The position numbers were made by a program, and so were the translations under genes. Shown piece after piece: positions 24,332-32,466 of a stretch of 64,000 bases of DNA (position 1 is the first letter of the stretch; the number at the start of each line of letters is the position of its first letter). The stretch covers positions 1-64,000 of IMG/VR virus record IMGVR_UViG_3300006076_000003, one strand, 5' to 3'. Origin of the DNA: a virus. The notes below the pieces were generated by a model that was not told the DNA's origin, searched no databases, and worked only from the letters and a program-made list of their open reading frames with translations.

Positions 24332-24537
24332 CCATGCGGCGAGTCGAAATTAGGGTACCCTTGGAATGCTGTCTCTGTGGACAGCAAAAATTCCTCGGTA
24401 TTGCTGTAATAAGGCTCATCTGCCCAACCCTCAAATGGTACCTCTTGTTGCTGTGATTCAATACAACAATCTTGGCTTACATATTCTTCCGCTTCAATTG
24501 CATTTGCTAATTCTTCAAGTTCTTTAATTAATAACAT
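24307..24537 (-). CDS. Small acidic early protein
   Basis: AGGAG RBS; E/D-rich. Confidence 0.55.
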   Translation of the reverse strand: MLLIKELEELANAIEAEEYVSQDCCIESQQQEVPFEGWADEPYYSNTEEFLLSTETAFQGYPNFDSPHGWGRVSWK

Positions 24538-24579
24538 AATACGCTCTCCTGTAATTAAATTTTTATTCTTAACTAAAGT

Positions 24580-24732
24580 CTATAATTTGACTTTAATTAT
24601 TGCTGGGCGGTTTTCATGTTTATCCGCCGCAGCTTTTGCTGACTCATAATCAGCATATATTAGTCTTTCGACTAACTTCTCAGTTGAGTCAAAGTACGAC
24701 TCTTCACCCCATTCTAAAATGTAAACATACAT
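24580..24732 (-). CDS. Small hypothetical protein
   Basis: AAGGAG RBS before ATG 24732 (MYVYILEWGE..). Confidence 0.55.
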   Translation of the reverse strand: MYVYILEWGEESYFDSTEKLVERLIYADYESAKAAADKHENRPAIIKVKL

Positions 24733-24754
24733 TTTTTCTCCTTTAATTAAATTT

Positions 24755-24847
24755 TTATTCCTGCCAACCGCACGCTTGGCAGTAGCTGTTTGTAACCCAA
24801 TGTCCACACATAGGACAATCGCCTGTGTAAAATTTTGTAATTTGCAT
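24755..24847 (-). CDS. 30-aa zinc-ribbon peptide (not in ORF track)
   Basis: MQITKFYTGDCPMCGHWVTNSYCQACGWQE; AAGGAG RBS; two CxxC. Confidence 0.6.
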   Translation of the reverse strand: MQITKFYTGDCPMCGHWVTNSYCQACGWQE

Positions 24848-24930
24848 ATTTACTCCTTTTAGCTTGTATATGCTATTAAAATAATAGCAAGTATTACAGC
24901 AAAATCTAATAACATTGCTATGGCCATTTT

Positions 24931-25071
24931 TTATCCTTTCACCATAGCTTGATATATTGATACTTCAAATTGAAATGGGCTCCCTAAAGGTTTCCATCCC
25001 ATAGCAATATGCTCTCTAACAAATTCCTCTAAAAGGTCAATTGTGTGACCTTGCAAAATTCTATAGCTCAT
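24931..25071 (-). CDS. DUF1737-like small protein (not in ORF track)
   Basis: MSYRILQG..LEEFVREHIAMGWKPLGSP..YQAMVKG; AGGA RBS. Confidence 0.6.
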   Translation of the reverse strand: MSYRILQGHTIDLLEEFVREHIAMGWKPLGSPFQFEVSIYQAMVKG

Positions 25072-25096
25072 AATATTATAATCCTACAATTAATAT

Positions 25097-25122
25097 AGCA
25101 GTTTAAAGTCTTGCTTAGGACT
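25097..25122 (-). ncRNA. Pseudoknot motif copy 1
   Basis: AGTC-CTAAGCAA-GACT-TTAAAC-TGCT. Confidence 0.65.
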
Positions 25123-25127
25123 GAGTA

Positions 25128-25481
25128 TTAGTTGCAGATGAATCCAGGTACACTTACAATGTTGCCTTTAGCATCTCTTGTTGCATTGTTAGTATCTGGT
25201 GCCACTAAGTCTTGACGCTCAGGGAATGCAGCAAGGATCATAGCACTAACAATTAAAATTTTGTTAGGTTGTGGTTCAGGTAAGTTGTGGCCAGTGACCA
25301 CTTGACGGGAGACTGTGAACATATCTATGTCCCCCACGATTTGATTTTCTTTTTCAAGGCGAGCCTCATTACCTGATGGCTCATAAGTGGTTGTACCCCA
25401 GCCGTTTTTTAATGTAATTGCATGTGGAGTCCAATTCTCCACTACTAATTCTGTATAATTCATTAAAGTATCCTCAATCAT
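25128..25481 (-). CDS. Conserved-type phage hypothetical protein (NxTPH motif)
   Basis: NWTPH..PSG..ARL..LPEP..IVS..DLVAPD..RD..G pattern. Confidence 0.65.
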   Translation of the reverse strand: MIEDTLMNYTELVVENWTPHAITLKNGWGTTTYEPSGNEARLEKENQIVGDIDMFTVSRQVVTGHNLPEPQPNKILIVSAMILAAFPERQDLVAPDTNNATRDAKGNIVSVPGFICN

Positions 25482-25519
25482 TTTATTCTCCTAAAATTAG
25501 ATTTTTTGACCTATAGGGT

Positions 25520-25553
25520 AGGCCTCCTTAGGTCTGTGCCTGAGGGGCTTTTT
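25520..25553. terminator. GC-rich hairpin with T tract
   Basis: GCCTCCTTAGG-TCTGTG-CCTGAGGGGC-TTTTT. Confidence 0.45.
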
Positions 25554-25723
25554 ATATAAGTCTTAATTAAATCTTAATTTATTTATTAAAACTTAATTAA
25601 AACTTAATAGAAATAATCAAAATAGTTGTTATGACTGTATAAGTTTTAAACTTTAAAGTTGTATAAAAAATATACAGTCTATTTTTGAGGTTTGTGGGTT
25701 TGTTGGTTTTGTTTAGAGGGCTG

Positions 25724-26041
25724 TTAGAGGTCTGGAAGGAGCTCCAAATGCTCCTCCCTACCGCTATTTTCCACGTATAGCTCCTCATAAATTTTGTCGT
25801 AAATCCCCTCTTTCCCAAGAGACGATAACTCTCGTAAATGTGTGAGGTACCACTCTTGTCCACCTATATAATCCAAGTAACTACCGCCTTCAGCTTTAGC
25901 TTTTGCTTTAGACTGCTTAATTATCAATTTTTCTAAAGCTTTATCACTCATCTTTGGAGTGATTTTTAATTCCTTTATTTTGCCTATTACTGCCTTAGTG
26001 CGTTTAAACACTAAGCCAGCAATCTCTTGCTTGTAATGCAT
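25724..26041 (-). CDS. Hypothetical early protein
   Basis: AAGGAG RBS before ATG 26041 (MHYKQE). Confidence 0.6.
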   Translation of the reverse strand: MHYKQEIAGLVFKRTKAVIGKIKELKITPKMSDKALEKLIIKQSKAKAKAEGGSYLDYIGGQEWYLTHLRELSSLGKEGIYDKIYEELYVENSGREEHLELLPDL

Positions 26042-26347
26042 TTCTGCTCCTTTAATTAATAAATTCAATTAACCGAGGCCCCGTACGAGGTAATAGATAG
26101 AGTGTCGACACTATAAGTAGATATTGTTTATTTGTTAAAAAATAACAAATAAAAACAAAAGTAATATATGCTCTTTAAAAAACAGGCTACTCAAAGGTAG
26201 TTCCTAAGGAGAGCATATAAAACTCAATGCTGCTTTCCGTAGAAAACAGCAGTGAATTTTAAATTAAACTTAGACCAGCCCAAATGTCTATTTTTTCAAG
26301 TTTGGGCAGTCGTCCCAAAATTAAAAAATTAGGACACATACTCTTTA

Positions 26348-26586
26348 TGACCTTTTCGTGGTCATGTGGTGTAACCTAAGGGTTACACACCACTGCCCAC
26401 AACGCAAAATTAAGGTTATGGTCATTTCGTGGTCAAATTTCGTGGTCAAAATTTAACTCAAAAAACCCATGAAATAAGGCTTTGTCACTTTCATGGTCAT
26501 TTCGTGGTCAAATTTCGTGGTCAAATTTCGTGGTCAAAATGGTTGACCATGAAACCTCTTGTGGTCAAATAAAATGACCACGAAAA
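26348..26586. repeat. Iteron-like array TTTCGTGGTCA (origin-like element D) with hairpin
   Basis: Exact copies at 26354, 26425, 26438, 26500, 26513, 26526; variant at 26489; inverted copies at 26544 and 26575; hairpin GTGTAACC-TAAG-GGTTACAC at about 26369-26388. Confidence 0.85.
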
Positions 26587-26657
26587 TGTTAAATATTTAA
26601 TATTAGTTTAAAATTAAATGTGTATAATACACACATATAAATACTAAGGAGCAAGTG

Positions 26658-26828
26658 ATGAGAAAAAACATATGGTTCTCAAAATATCAACAAGAGATAA
26701 TGAGAGGGATAAAACAGTTTACAGATAACGTAAAAGAGACTGATTCAGAAATAATCAGAAAATCAATGGAATACTACCTACAGTATTTAAAAGATAACAA
26801 AATGGAGAAAGTGAATGATGAAAAATAA
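26658..26828 (+). CDS. Ribbon-helix-helix (CopG-like) protein, 56 aa (not in ORF track)
   Basis: MRKNIWFS..SEIIRKSMEYYL; AAGGAG RBS; TATAAT at 26623; overlaps next gene. Confidence 0.7.
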   Translation: MRKNIWFSKYQQEIMRGIKQFTDNVKETDSEIIRKSMEYYLQYLKDNKMEKVNDEK

Positions 26829-27798
26829 CACAGAGGTAATAGAATTTGAAAAGTACTTTAACAAGGTACCTGATGAATTAATAACACCAGATTGGCTATA
26901 TAAAAACCTTATTGAGAAAAATTCATTAAACGTTATGTTTGGTGCAACAGGATCTATGAAAAGTTTTGTTATTTTAGATATGCTATTGCATATAACAAAT
27001 AATAAAGATTGGCAAAACTTTAAATTAAAAGAGCAAGATGTTGTTGCTCTATATGTTGCTGGGGAAGGACAGACTGGTCTAAACCTTAGAATAAAAGCAG
27101 CATGTAATAAACATGAATTAAATCATGACAATTTGTTAATAAGCAAAACACCTGTTGATTTAATGAATGAGGGACATATTAACAAATTAATAGCAGCAAT
27201 TAAGAGTATAGATAAACATGTTTTTATCATATTTGATACACTAAACAGAAACTTTAGTGGTGATGAAAATAGCAGCAAAGATATGGCTGTTGTATGGCAG
27301 AATGTAACAAGATTAACAAAAGTTAATGCTACTGTTATGATAATTCACCATACAGGACATGGTGTTTCAAATAGAGCAAGAGGTAGTTCATCTATAAGAG
27401 CAGCAATGGATGGTGAGTTTGGTGTAGAACTCAATAAGGAAACAAAAGTTATAACTGTTTCAAATACCAAAGCTAAAAACACTGAAGAAGCAGATGCTAT
27501 TACTTTAACATATGAAAAAGTTATATTAGGAAAAGATGAAGACGATGATGACATTACCTCATTAGCATTGTTACCTTATATTGATGAGGACAGCAATGAT
27601 ACAGAAGAAGTATTAATAAATACTGCTGAACTCATCAAAGATAAATTACCTATGAGTCATAAAGACATTAACAAATTGATTGCTGATGTTTTTAATAAGG
27701 CAGAGGAGACAGTTAGAAAAAGCATAAAACCAAAGGTCTATGCTTATCTAAAAGATAAATATAACATCCAGTCCGCTAAATCTGGCTGGGTGTTATGA
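26815..27798 (+). CDS. AAA_25 / RSF1010 RepA-like helicase
   Basis: GATGSMKSF, YVAGEG, IFDTLNR..GDENS, IHHTG, RARGSS motifs. Confidence 0.85.
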   Translation: MMKNNTEVIEFEKYFNKVPDELITPDWLYKNLIEKNSLNVMFGATGSMKSFVILDMLLHITNNKDWQNFKLKEQDVVALYVAGEGQTGLNLRIKAACNKHELNHDNLLISKTPVDLMNEGHINKLIAAIKSIDKHVFIIFDTLNRNFSGDENSSKDMAVVWQNVTRLTKVNATVMIIHHTGHGVSNRARGSSSIRAAMDGEFGVELNKETKVITVSNTKAKNTEEADAITLTYEKVILGKDEDDDDITSLALLPYIDEDSNDTEEVLINTAELIKDKLPMSHKDINKLIADVFNKAEETVRKSIKPKVYAYLKDKYNIQSAKSGWVL

Positions 27799-27837
27799 TA
27801 CCATGTTATCTCTGAGAAAGAGGTTAAACCTCTTCCT

Positions 27838-29925
27838 CTATGCTTGCATAAAGTTATCTCCTATAATTAATTTAGTCTCTTGTTTATCAGGTCGTAGACT
27901 TGCGACCTCTTCTGCTGTTAATTTGTCACGGCTCATAGATTTTAATGCCATTAACATTGCTTCCTGCTCCCAAGCATCCAGTAAATCTTGTTTTCCTACT
28001 CGAAGCAATCCTTCCTGAAGCATTCCACATGCCCCATCATTATCGTGTATAAATATTGCTGACCCACCAAGTTCAGCAACATAATCTATTTTAGCTCTAA
28101 CAGCTACAGCATCATCTGCATGTGTTGCATTTGCTAAAGCTCCACTCATTTTAACTTTAGATTCAACATCTTGTTTATCGCCTCTTCCTTTGATTACTGA
28201 GACTGCTGGCACATATTTACCATTGTTTAAGATAAATAGCAATGGCATATGTCTAACAATACTCATAGACTTTAGGTTGTCATAACCCAACTTTTCATTG
28301 AACGATCTTCCTTCCTCATCACTTGAGATGTAGAATACCTTAGATTGGTATCCTTCTAAATAAGCAATTGATCTGGCTGGAAAACCATCCCTTGTCATGA
28401 TGTTTAACTCTGAGTACTCATTGTTATAAAATGAGTTCCCTATCTTGTTATACAGGTGGAATAATTCACCTGTATCTCCATATACTTCTTTAACAATCTT
28501 GAGATATACCTCCTCTGTTAGATTTATTTCCTCACTATGTGCTTCTAAGAAGTACTGTTCAGCCTTCTTAACAGCAGATTTAGGTGATACCCCAGCAGTA
28601 ATTGATTGTGATACTGCTTTCTTGATATCATCCCTTGTTGCTGATAGATTTGTTATTTTATTAAATGCTTTAGTAAGCTCCTTGTGTGGATCCATAACTG
28701 ATTTGTAGTCAAGTAGATTACATATTCTTAAAGCTTTACGCTCTTTACTAAGTCCAGCAGCAAACCTTATTGCTCCTGAGTTGGTGTAATCTGTGAACAG
28801 GTATGTTGCATTTGGTGTGCCACTTAAGTAATCATAATATGCTTGTACTACTCGCTTATGATAAAGCTCCTCTAAATAGCCATTAGCCGATTTTAAAAAT
28901 TTGCTAATGTTTTTATCAACATCCTTTTCAAACTCTGCTATTGCATTGTTTGGGTTCAACCTTTTAAGAGTTGACATAATTACAAATACAATATATTTGT
29001 AATCTAACTCATTTAATACTCTAGGCTTAAAACTCTCCCACATATATTTACCTATCTTTGTTTGTGGGTTTAATAAAGGATTTGGTGATGTATAATAAAC
29101 CCTTCCCCTGTAATCATATGCTGTCTCTATAAACAAGGGAAAGTTTCCACTTTCTTGTTTATTTTTTAATTCTACCAATGCTTTAATATACCTTTTGTAA
29201 TTTTGTTTTAATTTGTCTAACCTATCTTTGATTAGCAATCTCCTTTCAAGATTGCTGTATTTTCTTGTTTTAGATAAAAATTTGCCTTCTTTAACAGCTA
29301 TATATTCTTTGCTGGTCAGCAAATATTTATACAGCTTTTTAATCTCTACATCATTTACAAGACGATGTTGCATCTTGTTAGCATTTGCTAAAGTCTTTTT
29401 AGCAGCACTATTAAGTTTACGTGCTGGCATACCTGCTTTACCTGCTACTTTAGTTTTAGGCTTTTGTGGTGAAAATGTTACACCACTAGTAGCATCTTTA
29501 AGAGCTACTTCAATACTAGGGTCCCCAATAAACTTTTCAATCTTTTGGTACTGCTTGTTACGACTTCTATACACTTCAACTCTTTTATTTGGACCTACTT
29601 TCATATAAGCATTTAGCACTGCTGCTGCAATGCTTAACTTTGCATGTTCCCTCCAGTGAGGGTTGAAATCTCCTAAGCCTCTTGAGTTTAGCCTATAAGA
29701 CAGTGCAGCAACTGCGTTATGCAGTTCAGTTTCTCTTAGATTTTCTAAGAAAGATAGGATATCTTTCTTATAGCCTCCTTTGAAAAAGATATCATAGGCA
29801 GCTACCATTGCTGCCCATTTTTCGTCTTTACCTTCTAAAGTCTTTAGAACTTTTAAATCTTCAAGAGATTTTTTGCTTTCTTTTAATTCAATATACACTT
29901 TTCTATAGATTGTTTCAGTTTTCAT
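27838..29925 (-). CDS. Single-subunit T7/N4-RNAPII-type RNA polymerase
   Basis: YDYRGRVY, motif A TDYTNSG, motif B RDDIKKAV, ANATHADDA, motif C FIHD. Confidence 0.85.
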   Translation of the reverse strand: MKTETIYRKVYIELKESKKSLEDLKVLKTLEGKDEKWAAMVAAYDIFFKGGYKKDILSFLENLRETELHNAVAALSYRLNSRGLGDFNPHWREHAKLSIAAAVLNAYMKVGPNKRVEVYRSRNKQYQKIEKFIGDPSIEVALKDATSGVTFSPQKPKTKVAGKAGMPARKLNSAAKKTLANANKMQHRLVNDVEIKKLYKYLLTSKEYIAVKEGKFLSKTRKYSNLERRLLIKDRLDKLKQNYKRYIKALVELKNKQESGNFPLFIETAYDYRGRVYYTSPNPLLNPQTKIGKYMWESFKPRVLNELDYKYIVFVIMSTLKRLNPNNAIAEFEKDVDKNISKFLKSANGYLEELYHKRVVQAYYDYLSGTPNATYLFTDYTNSGAIRFAAGLSKERKALRICNLLDYKSVMDPHKELTKAFNKITNLSATRDDIKKAVSQSITAGVSPKSAVKKAEQYFLEAHSEEINLTEEVYLKIVKEVYGDTGELFHLYNKIGNSFYNNEYSELNIMTRDGFPARSIAYLEGYQSKVFYISSDEEGRSFNEKLGYDNLKSMSIVRHMPLLFILNNGKYVPAVSVIKGRGDKQDVESKVKMSGALANATHADDAVAVRAKIDYVAELGGSAIFIHDNDGACGMLQEGLLRVGKQDLLDAWEQEAMLMALKSMSRDKLTAEEVASLRPDKQETKLIIGDNFMQA

Positions 29926-29959
29926 TTTGAACTCCTATAATTAATTTTTTTTTGTTCAA

Positions 29960-30073
29960 CGTACCTTTGTTTAAGCAGTTGGTCTGCTCTTGTTAACTAA
30001 CAACTAACCCACCATTAAGTACTCCATTGAGTACTTAAGGATGAGTGAACAGTTTATAGTCTTGTTCAGGACT
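29960..30073 (-). ncRNA. Structured leader of RNAP gene: pseudoknot copy 2, long hairpin, ACCAA-loop element
   Basis: AGTC-CTGAACAA-GACT-ATAAAC-TGTTCA; hairpin 30008-30045; AGCAG-ACCAA-CTGCT..GGTACG. Confidence 0.65.
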
Positions 30074-30089
30074 AAGGCAGATCTTAGAG

Positions 30090-30599
30090 CTATTCAATCC
30101 TAAAATCTACCATGGGAACTTCTAATCCCTTAGCAGCTAATGCTGCTAAGGTTAATATTCCTTCTTTGGCAATCCCCTTCCTTTCATATTCCCTTATTTC
30201 AAGTGTTGTCTCTCTATCAATTATTTGTTGTACAAATTCTCTATATAATAGAGAGACTATTAAGTATTTGGATATATCCTCCTGTATCCTACTATACTTT
30301 GATTCTACTTTAGTTTGTAGGACTATTTTATCTCTTTTAATCTCTAATAGGGAAATTGATATGTCTGCATACATGTCTTTATTATTAATTCCTGCTTTTG
30401 TGATTCTTTCCTCAGGAGCCTCTGACTCCCAACCAAATACTCTACGTTCTCCTTTTACCCATCCTTTACTTATAAGCCAATACTTAAATGTATGGTTATT
30501 CAAAACTTCAGACATTTCTGCGTACTCTTTGTATGCTTCTCTATTTGCAAGGCCACCTAATTTTTTGTGTCCGTAAAATTCAATTGTTAAAGTTTTCAT
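30090..30599 (-). CDS. Hypothetical early protein
   Basis: AAGGAG RBS, 169 aa. Confidence 0.65.
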   Translation of the reverse strand: MKTLTIEFYGHKKLGGLANREAYKEYAEMSEVLNNHTFKYWLISKGWVKGERRVFGWESEAPEERITKAGINNKDMYADISISLLEIKRDKIVLQTKVESKYSRIQEDISKYLIVSLLYREFVQQIIDRETTLEIREYERKGIAKEGILTLAALAAKGLEVPMVDFRIE

Positions 30600-30629
30600 A
30601 ATGTTCTCCTTAAATTAATTTATTATGAG

Positions 30630-30748
30630 CGTACCTTTTTAAAAGAGTTGGTCTCTTTTCTATTGAACAATTAAACTAACTACCCACCATTAAACATTCC
30701 TAAGAATGTTTAAAGATAGGTAAGCAGTTTTACAACATGCTTAGGTTG
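30630..30748 (-). ncRNA. Structured leader: pseudoknot copy 3, long hairpin, ACCAA-loop element
   Basis: CAAC-CTAAGCAT-GTTG-TAAAAC-TGCTTA; hairpin 30683-30720; AAAAGAG-ACCAA-CTCTTTT..GGTACG. Confidence 0.65.
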
Positions 30749-30754
30749 TTGTTT

Positions 30755-31096
30755 TTATTTTTGTTTTTCAATCTCCTTTTTTAATTTTGCTAGTTTAAGC
30801 TCTCTTCTGAGAGCTTCCTCTTCCTCACGAGCTGTCTTCTCTTCTTCGCTCTCCTCTAACAGAGTAGAGAACCACTCTGCTGAGTTTTTAATATGTGTTG
30901 GTGTATTACCAACAAACTCAATTGTTCTATAAGTAGCCTCTGCAGTCAATGCTGCAGTTTTAGAAATTGACGCAGTAGAGTAAACTACCGCATCGTTTAA
31001 GTCAGCTAAAGGAGTTAATCCTTTATCTGCACAATTAGACTCTACTGAGTCAACTAAATCTTCAATAAACCATTTTGCTTTTGTGAATACTTTCAT
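30755..31096 (-). CDS. First early protein (hypothetical)
   Basis: AAGGAG RBS before ATG 31096 (MKVFTKAKWF). Confidence 0.65.
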   Translation of the reverse strand: MKVFTKAKWFIEDLVDSVESNCADKGLTPLADLNDAVVYSTASISKTAALTAEATYRTIEFVGNTPTHIKNSAEWFSTLLEESEEEKTAREEEEALRRELKLAKLKKEIEKQK

Positions 31097-31118
31097 TGTA
31101 TTCTCCTTTAAATAAATT

Positions 31119-31144
31119 AGCAGTTTTACTACTTGCTTAGGTAA
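31119..31144 (-). ncRNA. Pseudoknot motif copy 4
   Basis: TTAC-CTAAGCAA-GTAG-TAAAAC-TGCT. Confidence 0.6.
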
Positions 31145-31149
31145 AATTA

Positions 31150-31420
31150 GGTACTTCAACCACCATAGGGGGGGGGTATCCCCACTTGATTGGCGTTGGA
31201 TGCACCTAACTACACACCTCACTAAAAAGAAAGAAAAAACACCTATCACCAAACCTAAAAACTGCACACTGCAAACAATTTAACATCACATGCTAAAAAA
31301 TTTTTATTTTTATTACTACTACTATTATTATTAAGTTATAAAAAGAAATATATAAGTATTTAAAGAAAAGCCCCAGCGGCTCAGCTAAAAGGACGGGTGG
31401 GGTGTTAGGCAATTTTGTTA
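31150..31420. other. Probable genome-end / terminal repeat region between divergent arms
   Basis: Strand switch, G-run followed by TATCCC at about 31168-31182, strong strand-compositional skew; lies upstream of the terminase genes as in N4. Confidence 0.45.
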
Positions 31421-31426
31421 TTGTTA

Positions 31427-31435
31427 TGCTATAAT
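31427..31435 (+). promoter_or_regulatory. Extended -10 promoter (TGnTATAAT)
   Basis: TGCTATAAT upstream of late operon. Confidence 0.55.
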
Positions 31436-31560
31436 CTACCAAAACTTAAAAATAGGCTTAAAAGTTATGTTATATTATATAGACTTTTTTTGTTTGCACT
31501 GCAATTCAACAAACAAATGCATACTAAAAGACAACATTATAAAATGTCCTTTATGCAACA

Positions 31561-32466
31561 ATGTTATATATGAAAAAGGAAAAAACAATGGCAGAAAAAA
31601 AGAAGAAAAAAGAACCCCAATATGGGACGCCAGCAAGTAGGCGTGAGAAATATGAAAACAGAATTAAAGAACAAGTTGCTTTATATAAGCCACAGATTAG
31701 TCAATTAGGTAAAGTAGCATTATCAGATAAACCTGTTGATGTTGAAGAATTACATAAAAGGTTCCCTCGTTATAAGAAGTTAATCAACCCTGAACATTCA
31801 CGTTTGCTAAATGAGTTTATGAAAGAAAAAGATTTCAATATACAAATGTTTATGGATGAACTTGTTTATTACCAAGATGTTATGGGAGAAACTAAAACAA
31901 GTATGAAGAACTATATACTTGCTGTAAGATATGTTAGCTTTCTCCCTGTTTATAAATACAATAAGACACAAACATTTAAACGTGTGTTTCCAAATAATCC
32001 TAATGTACGCAAGTGTGAAGCTTGGCTTGCTGAAGATGGTAATAAAAGAGAAGATTGTATAGATTGTAAATTTGTTTCTGCAGAGGCATCAAAATATTCT
32101 AATTCACCACTTGTACAAAAATTAATTGCTTTAAGTATGATGCCACTTGACTATATGTTAATGGGTGATCGTATTAAAATGTTAAATGTCCTAACTAAAG
32201 AAGCAATGACTGCTAAAACAAGTAGAGATAGAATTGCTGCTGCTGATAAATTCTTAACACATACAAAAACTATTGAAACAAATAAAATTACTATGGAAGA
32301 TAAAACAGGTAAAGAAATACAAAACAGTTTGCAGTCTATATTAGAAGAGAAACTTGCTGAATCTGTTAAGATGCAAAAACAAATGTTAGCTCAAGGTATG
32401 GGTATTGATGAAGTACAGAAGTTAGGGATAGAAATAACAGATGCTGAGGTAATAGAAGATGAGTGA
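31561..32466 (+). CDS. Probable terminase small subunit (N4 gp69 position)
   Basis: Directly upstream of terL; true start probably 31588. Confidence 0.55.
   Translation: MLYMKKEKTMAEKKKKKEPQYGTPASRREKYENRIKEQVALYKPQISQLGKVALSDKPVDVEELHKRFPRYKKLINPEHSRLLNEFMKEKDFNIQMFMDELVYYQDVMGETKTSMKNYILAVRYVSFLPVYKYNKTQTFKRVFPNNPNVRKCEAWLAEDGNKREDCIDCKFVSAEASKYSNSPLVQKLIALSMMPLDYMLMGDRIKMLNVLTKEAMTAKTSRDRIAAADKFLTHTKTIETNKITMEDKTGKEIQNSLQSILEEKLAESVKMQKQMLAQGMGIDEVQKLGIEITDAEVIEDE

What the first reader, a model, noticed from the sequence alone, without database searches (positions are those of the whole stretch)
25097..31144. Four dispersed, covarying H-type pseudoknots in early-gene leaders
Seen (minus strand): AGUC-CUAAGCAA-GACU-UUAAAC-UGCU (25097-25122), AGUC-CUGAACAA-GACU-AUAAAC-UGUUCA (30046-30073), CAAC-CUAAGCAU-GUUG-UAAAAC-UGCUUA (30721-30748) and UUAC-CUAAGCAA-GUAG-UAAAAC-UGCU (31119-31144). 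P1 changes compensatorily (AGUC/GACU, CAAC/GUUG, UUAC/GUAG with a U-G pair). P2 also covaries (AGCA/UGCU versus AACA/UGUU), while CU and UAAAC are invariant. All copies are intergenic and upstream of early genes, including the RNAP gene. Established: the geometry (4-bp stem, 8-nt loop, xxAAx linker, UGC) resembles type III antitoxin ToxI pseudoknots, which phage phiTE mimics. Inference: a phage cis-regulatory or protective RNA element, such as a 5' exonuclease block, processing signal, ligand sensor or ToxI-like decoy. I cannot assign it to a named family.
Basis: partly seen in the sequence, partly recalled or inferred. Interest (0 to 1): 0.85.

Follow-up and report, generated by a model that had tools for sequence, protein, structure and literature searches.

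The report
Gene-end RNA pseudoknot in a phage
The four repeats are real copies of a tiny, knot-shaped RNA fold that very many unrelated phages place a few bases after a gene's stop codon; I found it in no RNA catalogue or paper, and it probably acts as a physical barrier marking the ends of messages, though this is untested.

Summary
All four elements exist at the stated places on the minus strand. Chance expects 0.01 such matches. They are the only good copies in the 86.6-kb phage record.

They belong to a large family. It also occurs in cultured phages of Moraxella, Clostridium, Lactobacillus, Anoxybacillus and cyanobacteria.

Both stems covary strongly, and G-U pairs outnumber A-C pairs 123 to 32. 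This points to an RNA pseudoknot on the sense strand, not a DNA promoter.

The family is anchored to the upstream stop codon. In 125 of 286 instances a long open frame stops 4-10 nt before stem 1, most often 5 nt, and never 0-3 nt. Window copies have spacers of 5, 6 and 16 nt.

Rfam 15 has no match. The closest known element is the coremin Xrn1-resistant motif of plant RNA viruses.

The most likely function is a mechanical roadblock at cistron ends; this is inferred, not shown. The ToxI-decoy idea is not supported. This scan has already followed up the same motif on other genomes.

The parts
31117..31144 (-). Pseudoknot copy D. Stem 1 is 31144-31141 with 31132-29. L1 is C at 31140. Stem 2 is 31139-34 with 31122-17, of which only 4 pairs are clean. 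L3 is UAAAAC at 31128-23. It lies about 20 nt upstream of the first ATG (31096) of the leftward arm, and no long ORF ends before it.
   Evidence: (45.8 bits)
30721..30748 (-). Pseudoknot copy C. Stem 1 is CAAC/GUUG and stem 2 is UAAGCA/UGCUUA (6 bp). It starts 6 nt after the TAA (30757-30755) of the 113-aa ORF.
   Evidence: (49.6 bits)
30046..30073 (-). Pseudoknot copy B. Stem 1 is AGUC/GACU and stem 2 is UGAACA/UGUUCA, with two compensated changes relative to copy C. It starts 16 nt after the TAG (30092-30090) of the 169-aa ORF and lies about 120 nt upstream of the RNAP-like gene.
   Evidence: (32 bits)
25095..25122 (-). Pseudoknot copy A. Stem 1 is AGUC/GACU and stem 2 is AGCA/UGCU. It starts 5 nt after the TAA (25130-25128) of the 117-aa ORF and lies 23 nt upstream of the DUF1737 ORF.
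   Evidence: (47.4 bits)
30673..30730 (-). Extended imperfect hairpin (about 19-25 bp) that begins at or inside the 3' strand of stem 2 of copy C. It may be a double-strand-specific processing site.
   Evidence: 150-nt fold, z -4.13, 0 of 200 shuffles as good; alignment
30006..30046 (-). Core of the matching extended hairpin right after copy B. Its arms differ from the hairpin after copy C but keep pairing.
   Evidence: z -4.43
30755..31096 (-). First ORF of the leftward arm (113 aa from the ATG at 31096). It matches no family. Its stop codon is followed by copy C.
30090..30599 (-). ORF of 169 aa with no family match. Its stop codon is followed by copy B.
27838..29925 (-). ORF of 695 aa, a distant single-subunit RNA polymerase of the N4 RNAPII kind.
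   Evidence: phrog_2051, 1.4e-7, residues 338-442; 24.6% identity to the Alteromonas phage PT11-V19 RNA polymerase, E 2e-11; chain 6dt7_B 'RNAP2', E 0.028; no Pfam match
25128..25481 (-). ORF of 117 aa whose stop codon is followed by copy A.
   Evidence: (phrog_21731, unknown function)

Best explanation
The four elements are members of a widespread family of about 28-nt H-type RNA pseudoknots.

Anatomy: a 3-4 bp stem 1 closed by an invariant C-G pair; a one-base loop 1 (C); a 5-6 bp stem 2 formed by the hairpin loop with the bases downstream; one junction base; and a six-base loop 3 (WWAAAC) that should lie in the minor groove of stem 1.

Proposed function: the knot acts in cis on the polycistronic message, without a protein partner, as a compact mechanical roadblock at the end of a cistron. 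It folds just outside the footprint of the ribosome terminating on the upstream gene. It then stops processive enzymes, so that the RNA on its two sides is processed and decays independently.

For this phage I commit to the variant in which it caps the 3' end of the upstream message. Cleavage in the long hairpins that follow copies B and C (in other phages, RNase P at a tRNA or a hammerhead) would leave the knot a few bases from the new 3' end, where it would hold up 3'-to-5' exonucleases.

Shown: the fold, its spread and its anchoring to stop codons. Inferred: every step of the function. My odds are about 0.97 that it is a real structured RNA family, about 0.6 that it is a cis-acting roadblock or punctuation mark of some kind, and about 0.4 for the 3'-cap variant. 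The score given applies to the statement as a whole.
For: Structure:
- Covariation in both stems. On 39 copies, 94.9% of cells are paired, against 24-40% when partners are slid by 1-3 columns.
- G-U 123 against A-C 32 over the ten pairs in 281 distinct copies. This fits RNA on the sense strand.
- Loop 1 C and the last C of loop 3 are almost fixed.

Position:
- 125 of 286 instances have an open frame of 60 or more codons stopping 4-10 nt before stem 1. The counts are 48 at 5 nt, 30 at 6, 16 at 7, and 0 at -7 to +3.
- The mirror test for antisense ORFs gave 7 of 286.
- The rule holds in both collections: 75 of 151 viral and 50 of 135 genomic instances.
- Window copies A, C and B have spacers of 5, 6 and 16 nt.

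What follows the knot:
- A tRNA starts 3-13 nt after stem 2 in 8 of 292 instances, and hammerhead-like cores follow at once in 4.
- In the window, a 19-25 bp hairpin follows copies B and C at once.

Generality:
- Neighbouring genes are of all kinds: head genes in Lj965, A403 and CV244; ribonucleotide reductase and glutaredoxin in CRP-6; ORFs of unknown function.

Precedent:
- The coremin motif has the same layout, stalls Xrn1 and scanning ribosomes, and drives -1 frameshifting (passages of PMC10520033, PMC10321173 and PMC6546385).
Against: - There is no experimental or RNA-end evidence. No RNA run is listed for this DNA.
- Copy D has no upstream ORF, and 106 of 286 family members have no open frame of 60 or more codons stopping within 60 nt upstream or at the motif's own stop triplet. 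Part of this may reflect short genes.
- Known relatives of the fold (coremin, flavivirus xrRNAs) block 5'-to-3' enzymes, not 3'-to-5' enzymes.
- A simple hairpin would suffice to slow PNPase or RNase II, so the strict sequence conservation across phyla is not explained by a 3' cap alone.
- In a few loci a terminator-like hairpin ends just before the knot (6 of 255 within 20 nt). A 3' cap would be redundant there.
- In a family of 20-codon mini-ORFs, and in 6 of 163 long ORFs, the stop codon lies inside the knot, so the ribosome must open it.
- All family statistics come from pattern-selected copies and their neighbours, so conservation is overstated.
Confidence: 0.42

Rival explanations
1. It is a true exoribonuclease-resistant RNA working in the 5'-to-3' direction. 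Decay or scanning coming from the upstream gene (RNase J1 where the host has it, or 5'-end-dependent RNase E scanning) halts at the knot. The downstream cistron, such as the scaffold and major head genes or the RNAP gene here, therefore outlives the upstream one.
For: - Feature-by-feature likeness to coremin, which stalls Xrn1.
- A flavivirus xrRNA also stops bacterial RNase J1, so such blocks are enzyme-independent (PMC5760640 passages).
- In Lj965, A403 and CV244 the knot sits between low-copy head genes and downstream structural genes: the scaffold gene, then the major head gene, in Lj965 and A403.
- Copy D lies in a 5' leader with no gene before it.
Against: - The second hairpin that coremin needs for Xrn1 resistance is not a general feature. 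The 40 nt after the knot fold to -6 kcal/mol or better in 31% of 261 instances, against 35-36% at control places.
- Where a tRNA or a hammerhead follows within 3-13 nt, cleavage separates the knot from the RNA it would protect.
- The motif occurs in phages of Moraxella and in Polynucleobacter contigs. By my recollection these groups lack RNase J; this was not tested here.
- The tight link is to the upstream stop codon, not to the downstream start.
Confidence: 0.2
2. The target is the ribosome. The knot sits at the mRNA entry site exactly when the stop codon is in the A site. It either changes termination (a pause, frameshift or read-through), or acts as an insulator that keeps terminating or sliding ribosomes off the downstream RNA.
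For: - The 5-6 nt modal spacer and the empty 0-3 nt zone match the spacer range of -1 frameshift signals; that range is my recollection.
- Coremin stimulates -1 frameshifting, including in a screen run in E. coli, and stalls scanning ribosomes.
- Structured RNAs (tRNA, hammerhead, long hairpins) often follow directly.
Against: - An in-frame XXXYYYZ heptamer lies within 21 nt before the stop in 2 of 125 instances, against 6 of 125 in a control window.
- After the stop, all three frames close quickly, at a median of 4-8 codons.
- Members next to tRNAs, or with no upstream ORF, have no ribosome to act on.
- A minimum spacer is also expected simply because the knot must stay folded.
Confidence: 0.1
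3. It works in trans or binds something. After excision it would be a small RNA that sequesters a conserved host or defence protein (a ToxI-like decoy is one version), or it is an aptamer for a small molecule.
For: - Near-invariant loop bases across phyla suggest a specific surface.
- In L061 the knot lies 1 nt after one tRNA and 4 nt before the next, so tRNA processing would release it as a roughly 33-nt RNA.
- Type III antitoxins are also A-rich H-type pseudoknots (PMC12283969 passages).
Against: - No tandem array in the window.
- No ToxN match in the record (without a positive control).
- No gene family is consistently next to it.
- No riboswitch family matched in Rfam.
- The stop-codon anchoring is not explained.
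- The conserved bases are the same ones that coremin needs for its fold, so a partner is not required to explain them.
Confidence: 0.08
4. It is a very small self-cleaving ribozyme that cuts operon transcripts between genes.
For: It has the same kind of distribution as hammerheads in phages: intergenic, several per genome, and next to tRNAs and hammerheads.
Against: - At 28 nt it is smaller than any natural self-cleaving class I know of.
- No ribozyme family matched it.
- A hammerhead placed 5-12 nt after it would be redundant.
Confidence: 0.04
5. It is a DNA signal: a promoter for the phage's own RNA polymerase, or an N4-type hairpin promoter on single-stranded DNA.
For: - There are four conserved roughly 25-bp boxes, all in one orientation, ahead of genes in the arm that carries an RNAP-like gene.
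- The record may be N4-like.
Against: - A double-strand promoter does not need covariation in two interleaved stems.
- G-U pairs exceed A-C pairs 123 to 32, so pairing is on the sense strand, not the template strand.
- The motif is in temperate siphoviruses, jumbo cyanophages and bacterial contigs of many phyla.
- 0 of 50 motif-bearing viral records matched PF00940. This is weak evidence, because nothing matched in the controls either.
- Only four copies are present, and none is in the late arm.
Confidence: 0.03

Closest known systems
Coremin motif (xrRNA-C) and its Watson-Crick variant (xrRNA-WCC) of beny-, cucumo- and other eukaryotic RNA viruses. Sources, passages read: Dilweg et al. 2019 PMC6546385; 2023 PMC10520033; 2023 PMC10321173.
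   Same: - A short first hairpin of 3-4 bp with a C-G loop-closing pair. G-C works poorly in coremin; the phage motif has CG 38, GC 1.
- The first loop base is C, tolerated only as C or U in coremin. In phages, non-C gave 7 stretches against at least 114, and the plausible exceptions are mostly U.
- The spacer after the hairpin reads UUAAACU in coremin, as printed in PMC10520033: GUCCGAAGACGUUAAACUAC. There the UU may become AA, but AAA and CU may not change. The phage motif reads WWAAACU, with the same pattern of free and fixed bases.
- Loop bases pair with the end of the spacer to give an H-type knot. This pairing is canonical in xrRNA-WCC.
- Loops of 6-8 nt are tolerated.
- Both occur in intergenic regions and as dispersed repeats.
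   Different: - The phage loop is CUAAGCAW, not YGAD or YGNNAD.
- Stem 2 is 5-6 canonical pairs instead of 3 or non-canonical ones.
- The second hairpin that coremin needs to stall Xrn1 is not a general feature.
- The hosts are DNA phages and bacteria, which have no Xrn1.
- The element is anchored to stop codons.
- Function is untested.
- Neither of the two 2023 papers mentions phages or bacteria (0 occurrences each). A search for 'coremin' with 'phage' gave one unrelated paper.
Luteovirid-type compact H-type frameshift pseudoknots (BWYV, PLRV), named as the structural model for coremin in PMC10321173. Details beyond that paper are my recollection.
   Same: About 28 nt; one or two bases in loop 1 starting with C; one junction base; an A-rich loop 3 over a short stem 1; placed 5-7 nt after the codon in the ribosomal A site.
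   Different: No slippery heptamer (2 of 125) and no open shifted frame. The A-site codon is a stop codon. The motif is also found next to tRNAs.
Type III antitoxin RNAs (ToxI, CptI, TenpI). Source, passages read: PMC12283969.
   Same: Small A-rich H-type pseudoknots, found in phages as well as bacteria.
   Different: Antitoxins are tandem repeats between a promoter and a toxin gene, and are specific to each system. Here the copies are single and dispersed, there is no array and no ToxN match, and the same sequence occurs in many phyla.
Intercistronic stabilisers and punctuation of bacterial and phage operons: REP elements, RNase III sites of T7 early RNA, and hammerheads flanking phage genes. 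These are my recollection; hammerhead type III is Rfam RF00008, matched in L153.
   Same: Placed between cistrons close to the upstream stop codon. Thought to set 3' ends and differential stability. Hammerhead-like cores sit right next to the knot in 4 loci.
   Different: Those are simple hairpins or ribozymes, whose sequences are specific to a species or to a ribozyme class. This is one conserved pseudoknot shared across phyla.

Membership tests
Any Rfam 15 family | Covariance-model match at or near the family's gathering score | tested here: not met
   There were 0 matches at gathering score over 64 kb. At E up to 10 over 24900-31400 there were 8 weak matches. Only freshwater-2 (22.2 bits against a gathering score of 49.9, E 4.8) and mir-4662 (24 against 97) touch copies D and C.
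Coremin / xrRNA-C | First hairpin of 3-4 bp with a C-G loop-closing pair | tested here: met
   Pair 9-18 is CG in 38 and GC in 1 of 39 copies. Pairs 7-20 and 8-19 are paired in 114 and 113 of 115 copies.
Coremin / xrRNA-C | Loop consensus YGAD, or YGNNAD for six-base loops | tested here: not met
   The phage loop is C-U-R-A-G-C-A-W (8 nt). The first base, Y, fits; the second is U, not G. PMC10520033 reports one octaloop that also departs from the rule.
Coremin / xrRNA-C | Conserved roughly 10-nt spacer with essential AAA and CU | tested here: met
   The spacer is WWAAACU in all four window copies. AAA is invariant in the 39 less-biased copies, and C27 and U28 are at least 90% conserved. Non-C at the last loop-3 base gave 8 stretches against at least 114. 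The bases after CU differ: GCU here, AC in coremin.
Coremin / xrRNA-C | Second hairpin directly after the spacer, required for Xrn1 resistance | tested here: not met
   The 40 nt downstream fold to -6 kcal/mol or better in 31% of 261 instances, against 35% and 36% at controls. A hairpin is present after window copies B and C. None is evident to my eye after copy D, and the short fold spanning copy A is no better than its shuffles (z -0.40).
Coremin / xrRNA-C | Stalls a 5'-3' exoribonuclease | not testable with these tools
   This needs an in vitro digestion assay.
Type III antitoxin (ToxI-like) | Tandem array of pseudoknot repeats | tested here: not met
   Tandem Repeats Finder on 24500-31700 reported no array of the motif. 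The copies are 396, 675 and 4951 bases apart.
Type III antitoxin (ToxI-like) | Adjacent ToxN-family endoribonuclease gene | tested here: inconclusive
   PF13958 gave no match in the 86.6-kb record, but it also matched nothing in the control genomes. The CptN and TenpN families were not searched.
-1 programmed frameshift signal | In-frame slippery heptamer 5-9 nt upstream, and an open -1 frame | tested here: not met
   2 of 125 against 6 of 125 in the control window. The median open length after the stop is 8 codons in the -1 frame.
Phage RNA-polymerase promoter (double-strand or N4-type hairpin) | Function carried by DNA sequence or a template-strand hairpin, with no need for sense-strand wobble pairs | tested here: not met
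   G-U 123 against A-C 32 over the ten pairs. Two interleaved covarying helices.

The most novel reading that the evidence does not exclude
DNA phages of most bacterial phyla carry a prokaryotic counterpart of the coremin exoribonuclease-resistant RNA of eukaryotic RNA viruses. One 28-nt, protein-independent, mechanically rigid pseudoknot would serve as universal punctuation of operon transcripts, halting exonucleases and ribosomes at gene ends. This would be the first xrRNA-type element in bacteria and their viruses. It would be a fold shared, or invented twice, by DNA phages and RNA viruses.
Probability: 0.3. Interest if true: 0.9.

Novelty: new variant of a known kind. Interest (0 to 1): 0.78.

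Why it matters
If the reading holds, a single tiny RNA fold is one of the most widespread cis-elements of phage genomes, yet I found it in no catalogue I could search. It would give phage and prophage annotation a new feature that marks real gene ends.

It would also offer a 28-nt portable part for insulating or stabilising cistrons in synthetic operons. And it would extend the idea of mechanically resistant viral RNAs from eukaryotic RNA viruses to bacteria.

The stop-codon spacing, with a floor at 4-5 nt, is an in-genome readout of how far a terminating ribosome opens the message. The link to coremin makes the still-unsolved coremin structure approachable through hundreds of natural covarying variants.

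Tried and rejected
Promoter reading. I first suspected a T7- or T3-like or N4-type promoter because of the box-like conservation. I dropped it after the covariation and the G-U/A-C asymmetry. The PF00940 search of 50 motif-bearing records found nothing, but had no positive control, so it counts for little.

Relatives of the RNAP-like protein. A scan of viral contigs gave 13 pattern matches, none confirmed by tblastn.

Recoding. There was no slippery heptamer and no open frames after the stop. The motif's own U-R-A triplet is usually a stop triplet, but UGG and CAA variants exist. Open frames upstream of it are no longer than in the other two frames. I therefore treat the stop-like triplet as incidental.

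Terminator reading. Strict terminator-like hairpins are rare around the knot: 6 of 255 just upstream, and at most 6 in any other 20-nt bin.

Second hairpin. It is not enriched.

A shared partner protein. PHROG scans of genes flanking multi-copy loci gave only families of unknown function. I did not run an all-against-all comparison of motif-bearing genomes.

The 20-aa mini-ORF has no NCBIfam match.

Virion RNAP. The 2388-aa ORF beyond the window has no PHROG match and no convincing PDB sequence match (one weak hit, E 0.21, to an oxidoreductase). The N4-like label rests only on the weak RNAPII likeness.

RNA evidence. No RNA holder is listed for this DNA; the only holder is a hydrothermal-vent metagenome that may be its source.

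Literature.
- Searches found no paper describing this phage motif.
- I saw only passages of PMC10690425, a catalogue of 10,006 candidate viral RNAs from IMG/VR.
- I read passages only of PMC10520033, PMC10321173, PMC6546385, PMC5760640 and PMC12283969.

Rows dropped. For alignment A3 I used 35 of the 45 extra model matches printed. I left out 9 with insertions (length not 39) and one near-duplicate from L056. Family statistics exclude the window's own loci and collapse identical 120-nt contexts.

Full report
OBSERVATION

On the minus strand the window holds four copies of a 26-28-nt element, at 25122-25095 (A), 30073-30046 (B), 30748-30721 (C) and 31144-31117 (D). A degenerate 20-mer that fits all four has exactly four matches. 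Shuffles gave 0.01 on average, and 0 of 100 shuffles reached four.

The window is the first 64 kb of an 86.6-kb IMG/VR phage record rated 97% complete. The whole record holds the same four copies and no others: pattern search; covariance model. In the model search the four scored 32-49.6 bits and the next match 12.8 bits.

A 4-bp stem 1 encloses an 8-nt loop. Four to six of the loop bases pair with the bases that follow a six-base A-rich linker.

IS THE FOLD REAL?

Four copies alone give three kinds of stem 1 and two kinds of stem 2. The decisive evidence comes from outside the window.

A version allowing A or G at one stem-2 base hit the limit in one-genome-per-species GTDB, with at least 118 stretches.

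In an alignment of 115 copies, stem 1 is free in sequence but almost always paired. Pair 7-20 reads GC 54, CG 31, AU 20, UA 8, UG 1, other 1. Pair 8-19 reads AU 78, UA 33, CG 1, GC 1, other 2. The outermost pair is weaker, at 88 of 115. No shuffle out of 500 reached the observed covariation score.

Those copies were selected for the stem-2 sequence. I therefore built a covariance model with stem 1 only and searched 916 kb of fetched loci. That gave 45 further copies that do not fit the first pattern.

On 35 of these plus the four window copies, stem 2 covaries. Pair 12-32 reads GC 25, AU 7, GU 3. Pair 13-31 reads AU 36, GC 2. Pair 14-30 reads GC 35, AU 4. Pair 15-29 reads CG 31, UG 8. Overall 94.9% of cells are paired, against 24-40% when the partners are slid by 1-3 columns. 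The variant in window copy B (UGAACA/UGUUCA) recurs in L027 and L055.

Over 281 distinct copies, G-U pairs outnumber A-C mismatches 123 to 32. That is expected for RNA pairing on this strand. It is not expected for a double-strand DNA site or a template-strand hairpin.

The single base of loop 1 and the last base of loop 3 are nearly fixed as C. Patterns with any other base gave 7 and 8 stretches in IMG/VR. Several of those lack a stem 1, and the plausible loop-1 exceptions are mostly U.

I conclude that the H-type pseudoknot is real.

WHERE IT SITS

The family shows a sharper rule.

In 125 of 286 non-redundant instances, an open frame of at least 60 codons stops 4-10 nt before stem 1. The counts are 48 at 5 nt, 30 at 6, 16 at 7, 10 at 8 and 12 at 9. 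None stops between 7 nt inside the element and 3 nt before it. The mirror analysis for antisense ORFs gives 7 of 286. The rule holds separately for viral contigs (75 of 151) and genome contigs (50 of 135). The distance to the next start codon is broad.

In the window the spacers are 5 nt (A), 6 nt (C) and 16 nt (B). Copy D has no long ORF before it.

A floor of 4-5 nt is what one expects if the knot must stay folded while a ribosome sits on the stop codon. This is an inference from the known reach of the ribosomal mRNA entry site, which I recall rather than tested.

What follows the knot is also informative. A tRNA gene starts 3-13 nt after stem 2 in 8 of 292 instances. In L061 the knot lies 1 nt after one tRNA and 4 nt before the next. 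Hammerhead-like cores begin at once in 4 instances. Rfam confirmed one type III hammerhead in L153, but about 195 nt upstream of the knot, not the adjacent one.

In the window, copies B and C are each followed at once by an extended hairpin of about 19-25 bp. The arms differ between the two leaders but keep pairing (z -4.1 and -4.4).

In cultured phages the element lies in unannotated gaps:
- Between the minor head and scaffold genes of Lactobacillus prophage Lj965 (5 nt after the stop) and of Anoxybacillus phage A403.
- Between two structural genes of Lactobacillus phage CV244.
- Between the ribonucleotide reductase and glutaredoxin genes of roseophage CRP-6.
- Between ORFs of unknown function in Moraxella Mcat1, Clostridium phiCT19406B, Microcystis Ma-LMM01, Acaryochloris A-HIS1 and Planktothrix PaV-LD.

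So it is neither early-specific nor tied to one gene family.

WHAT IT IS NOT

Rfam 15 gives no match at gathering scores over the window. A permissive scan of the 6.5-kb region gives nothing meaningful.

There is no tandem array and no ToxN match (no positive control). The ToxI reading therefore rests only on the general fold.

There is no slippery heptamer (2 of 125 against 6 of 125 in a control window), and frames after the stop close within a median of 4-8 codons. A recoding signal is therefore unlikely.

Terminator-like hairpins are rare around it.

A promoter is contradicted by the pairing evidence above.

CLOSEST KNOWN

After I had the stop-codon rule, the scan's own notes showed that the same motif has been followed up at least eight times on other genomes, with the same conclusions. 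The notes named the coremin motif as a relative, and I checked this in the papers.

Coremin is printed as GUCCGAAGACGUUAAACUAC in PMC10520033. It is a 3-4-bp hairpin with a C-G closing pair, a loop whose first base must be C or U, and a roughly 10-nt spacer. In the spacer UU may change, but AAA and CU may not. A second hairpin of any sequence is required for stalling Xrn1 (PMC6546385).

The authors model coremin as a BWYV-like H-type pseudoknot. They show that it stalls scanning ribosomes and drives -1 frameshifting. They also found a variant with canonical loop-spacer pairs (PMC10321173).

The phage motif shares the closing pair, the loop-1 C, the WWAAACU spacer with the same free and fixed positions, and the topology. 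It differs in several ways. It has a longer loop that does not fit YGAD or YGNNAD. Its canonical stem 2 is 5-6 bp. It lacks a general second hairpin: 31% of 261 instances, against 35-36% at controls.

It therefore works like a coremin-type knot in structure, but fails two of coremin's defining features. I file it as a new variant of this kind, not as a member. Whether the likeness is descent or convergence is open.

MECHANISM

Shown: the fold, its spread, the fixed bases, the stop-codon anchoring and the frequent processing sites just downstream. Inferred: the function.

The reading that fits most contexts is a protein-independent roadblock at cistron ends.

I favour the 3'-cap version. Cleavage by RNase P, a hammerhead or a double-strand nuclease a few bases downstream leaves the knot at the 3' end of the upstream message. 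This covers the tRNA, hammerhead and long-hairpin contexts, and the tie to the upstream gene.

The main rival is the 5'-to-3' version: an xrRNA proper, protecting the downstream cistron. It is backed by the coremin precedent, by the finding that a flavivirus xrRNA also stops bacterial RNase J1 (PMC5760640), and by the head-gene contexts. It is weakened by the missing second hairpin, and by the tRNA and hammerhead contexts.

Several facts remain unexplained by either version:
- The conservation is strict where a plain hairpin would do.
- Copy D and many family members have no upstream ORF.
- A family of 20-codon mini-ORFs has its stop codon inside the knot.

CONTEXT OF THE WINDOW

Genes diverge from about 31.3-31.5 kb.
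- The rightward arm holds terminase, portal and large structural ORFs.
- The leftward arm holds small ORFs, the 695-aa RNAP-like gene, and then helicase, DNA polymerase and primase.
- The RNAP-like gene matches phrog_2051 and has a weak likeness to N4 RNAPII chain 6dt7_B.
- The four knots lie in the first 6 kb of the leftward arm. 'Early' is an inference by analogy with N4.
- The source sample is a hydrothermal-vent metagenome, and no RNA data are listed.

VERDICT

The element is a member of an apparently undescribed, very widespread gene-end pseudoknot family, whose nearest known relative is the coremin xrRNA. I found no paper on it. The closed supplement of PMC10690425 may list it.

Noticed in passing
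window 29995-30061 and 30673-30730 (minus strand), plus 31160-31215: After the knot, the leaders of the second and third genes share a long covarying hairpin, then TGGTGGGT, then GACCAACT in a small hairpin, then AAAGGTACG before the ribosome-binding site. A shorter ATGGTGG...GTAC, preceded by a GGGG-ATA-CCCC hairpin, lies upstream of copy D. These could be RNase III-type sites or N4-style hairpin promoters.
   Followed up: partly
window 31137-31205 (minus strand): A 22-codon open frame starts at a GTG 9 nt after a GAGGTG box, contains three consecutive proline codons, and ends at the UAA inside copy D. This is the same layout as the mini-ORF family seen in bacterial contigs. It may be chance in so short a frame.
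   Followed up: no
L135, L159, L187, L204, L235, L170, L215, L221, L239, L131, L213 (GTDB contigs): A stand-alone unit made of a promoter-like box, a ribosome-binding site and a 20-codon ORF (MKRFxVPRxxHCxxGCxxxS), followed by a terminator hairpin. The ORF's stop codon is the U-R-A inside the pseudoknot. The peptide is conserved through synonymous changes and has no NCBIfam match.
   Followed up: partly
L141, L157, L206, L240 (GTDB contigs): The motif lies inside CRISPR spacers, flanked on both sides by the same direct repeat, in 4 of the 118 genome loci. Hosts therefore acquire spacers against this conserved phage sequence.
   Followed up: no
L061 (IMG/VR contig of 78 kb): Inside a tRNA array, one knot sits 1 nt after a tRNA-Thr and 4 nt before a tRNA-Ser. 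tRNA processing would release it as a free RNA of about 33 nt.
   Followed up: no
window 26350-27798 (plus strand): An AAA_25 ATPase gene (8.9e-28) lies on the opposite strand in the middle of the leftward arm. It is preceded by 13-bp direct repeats (ATTTCGTGGTCAA, 3.1 and 2.1 copies), like a plasmid-type iteron origin. Other first-stage notes also list it.
   Followed up: no
window 27838-29925 (minus strand): The 695-aa RNAP-like protein matches only the large-subunit part of N4 RNAPII-type profiles, in its second half (residues 329-442). It may be a fusion of the two N4 RNAPII subunits. It has no Pfam match.
   Followed up: partly
L269 2632-9798 (record bases 66632-73798, beyond the window): A 2388-aa ORF follows an ORF of at least 811 aa. 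Neither has a PHROG match, and the larger has no convincing PDB sequence match (best E 0.21).
   Followed up: partly
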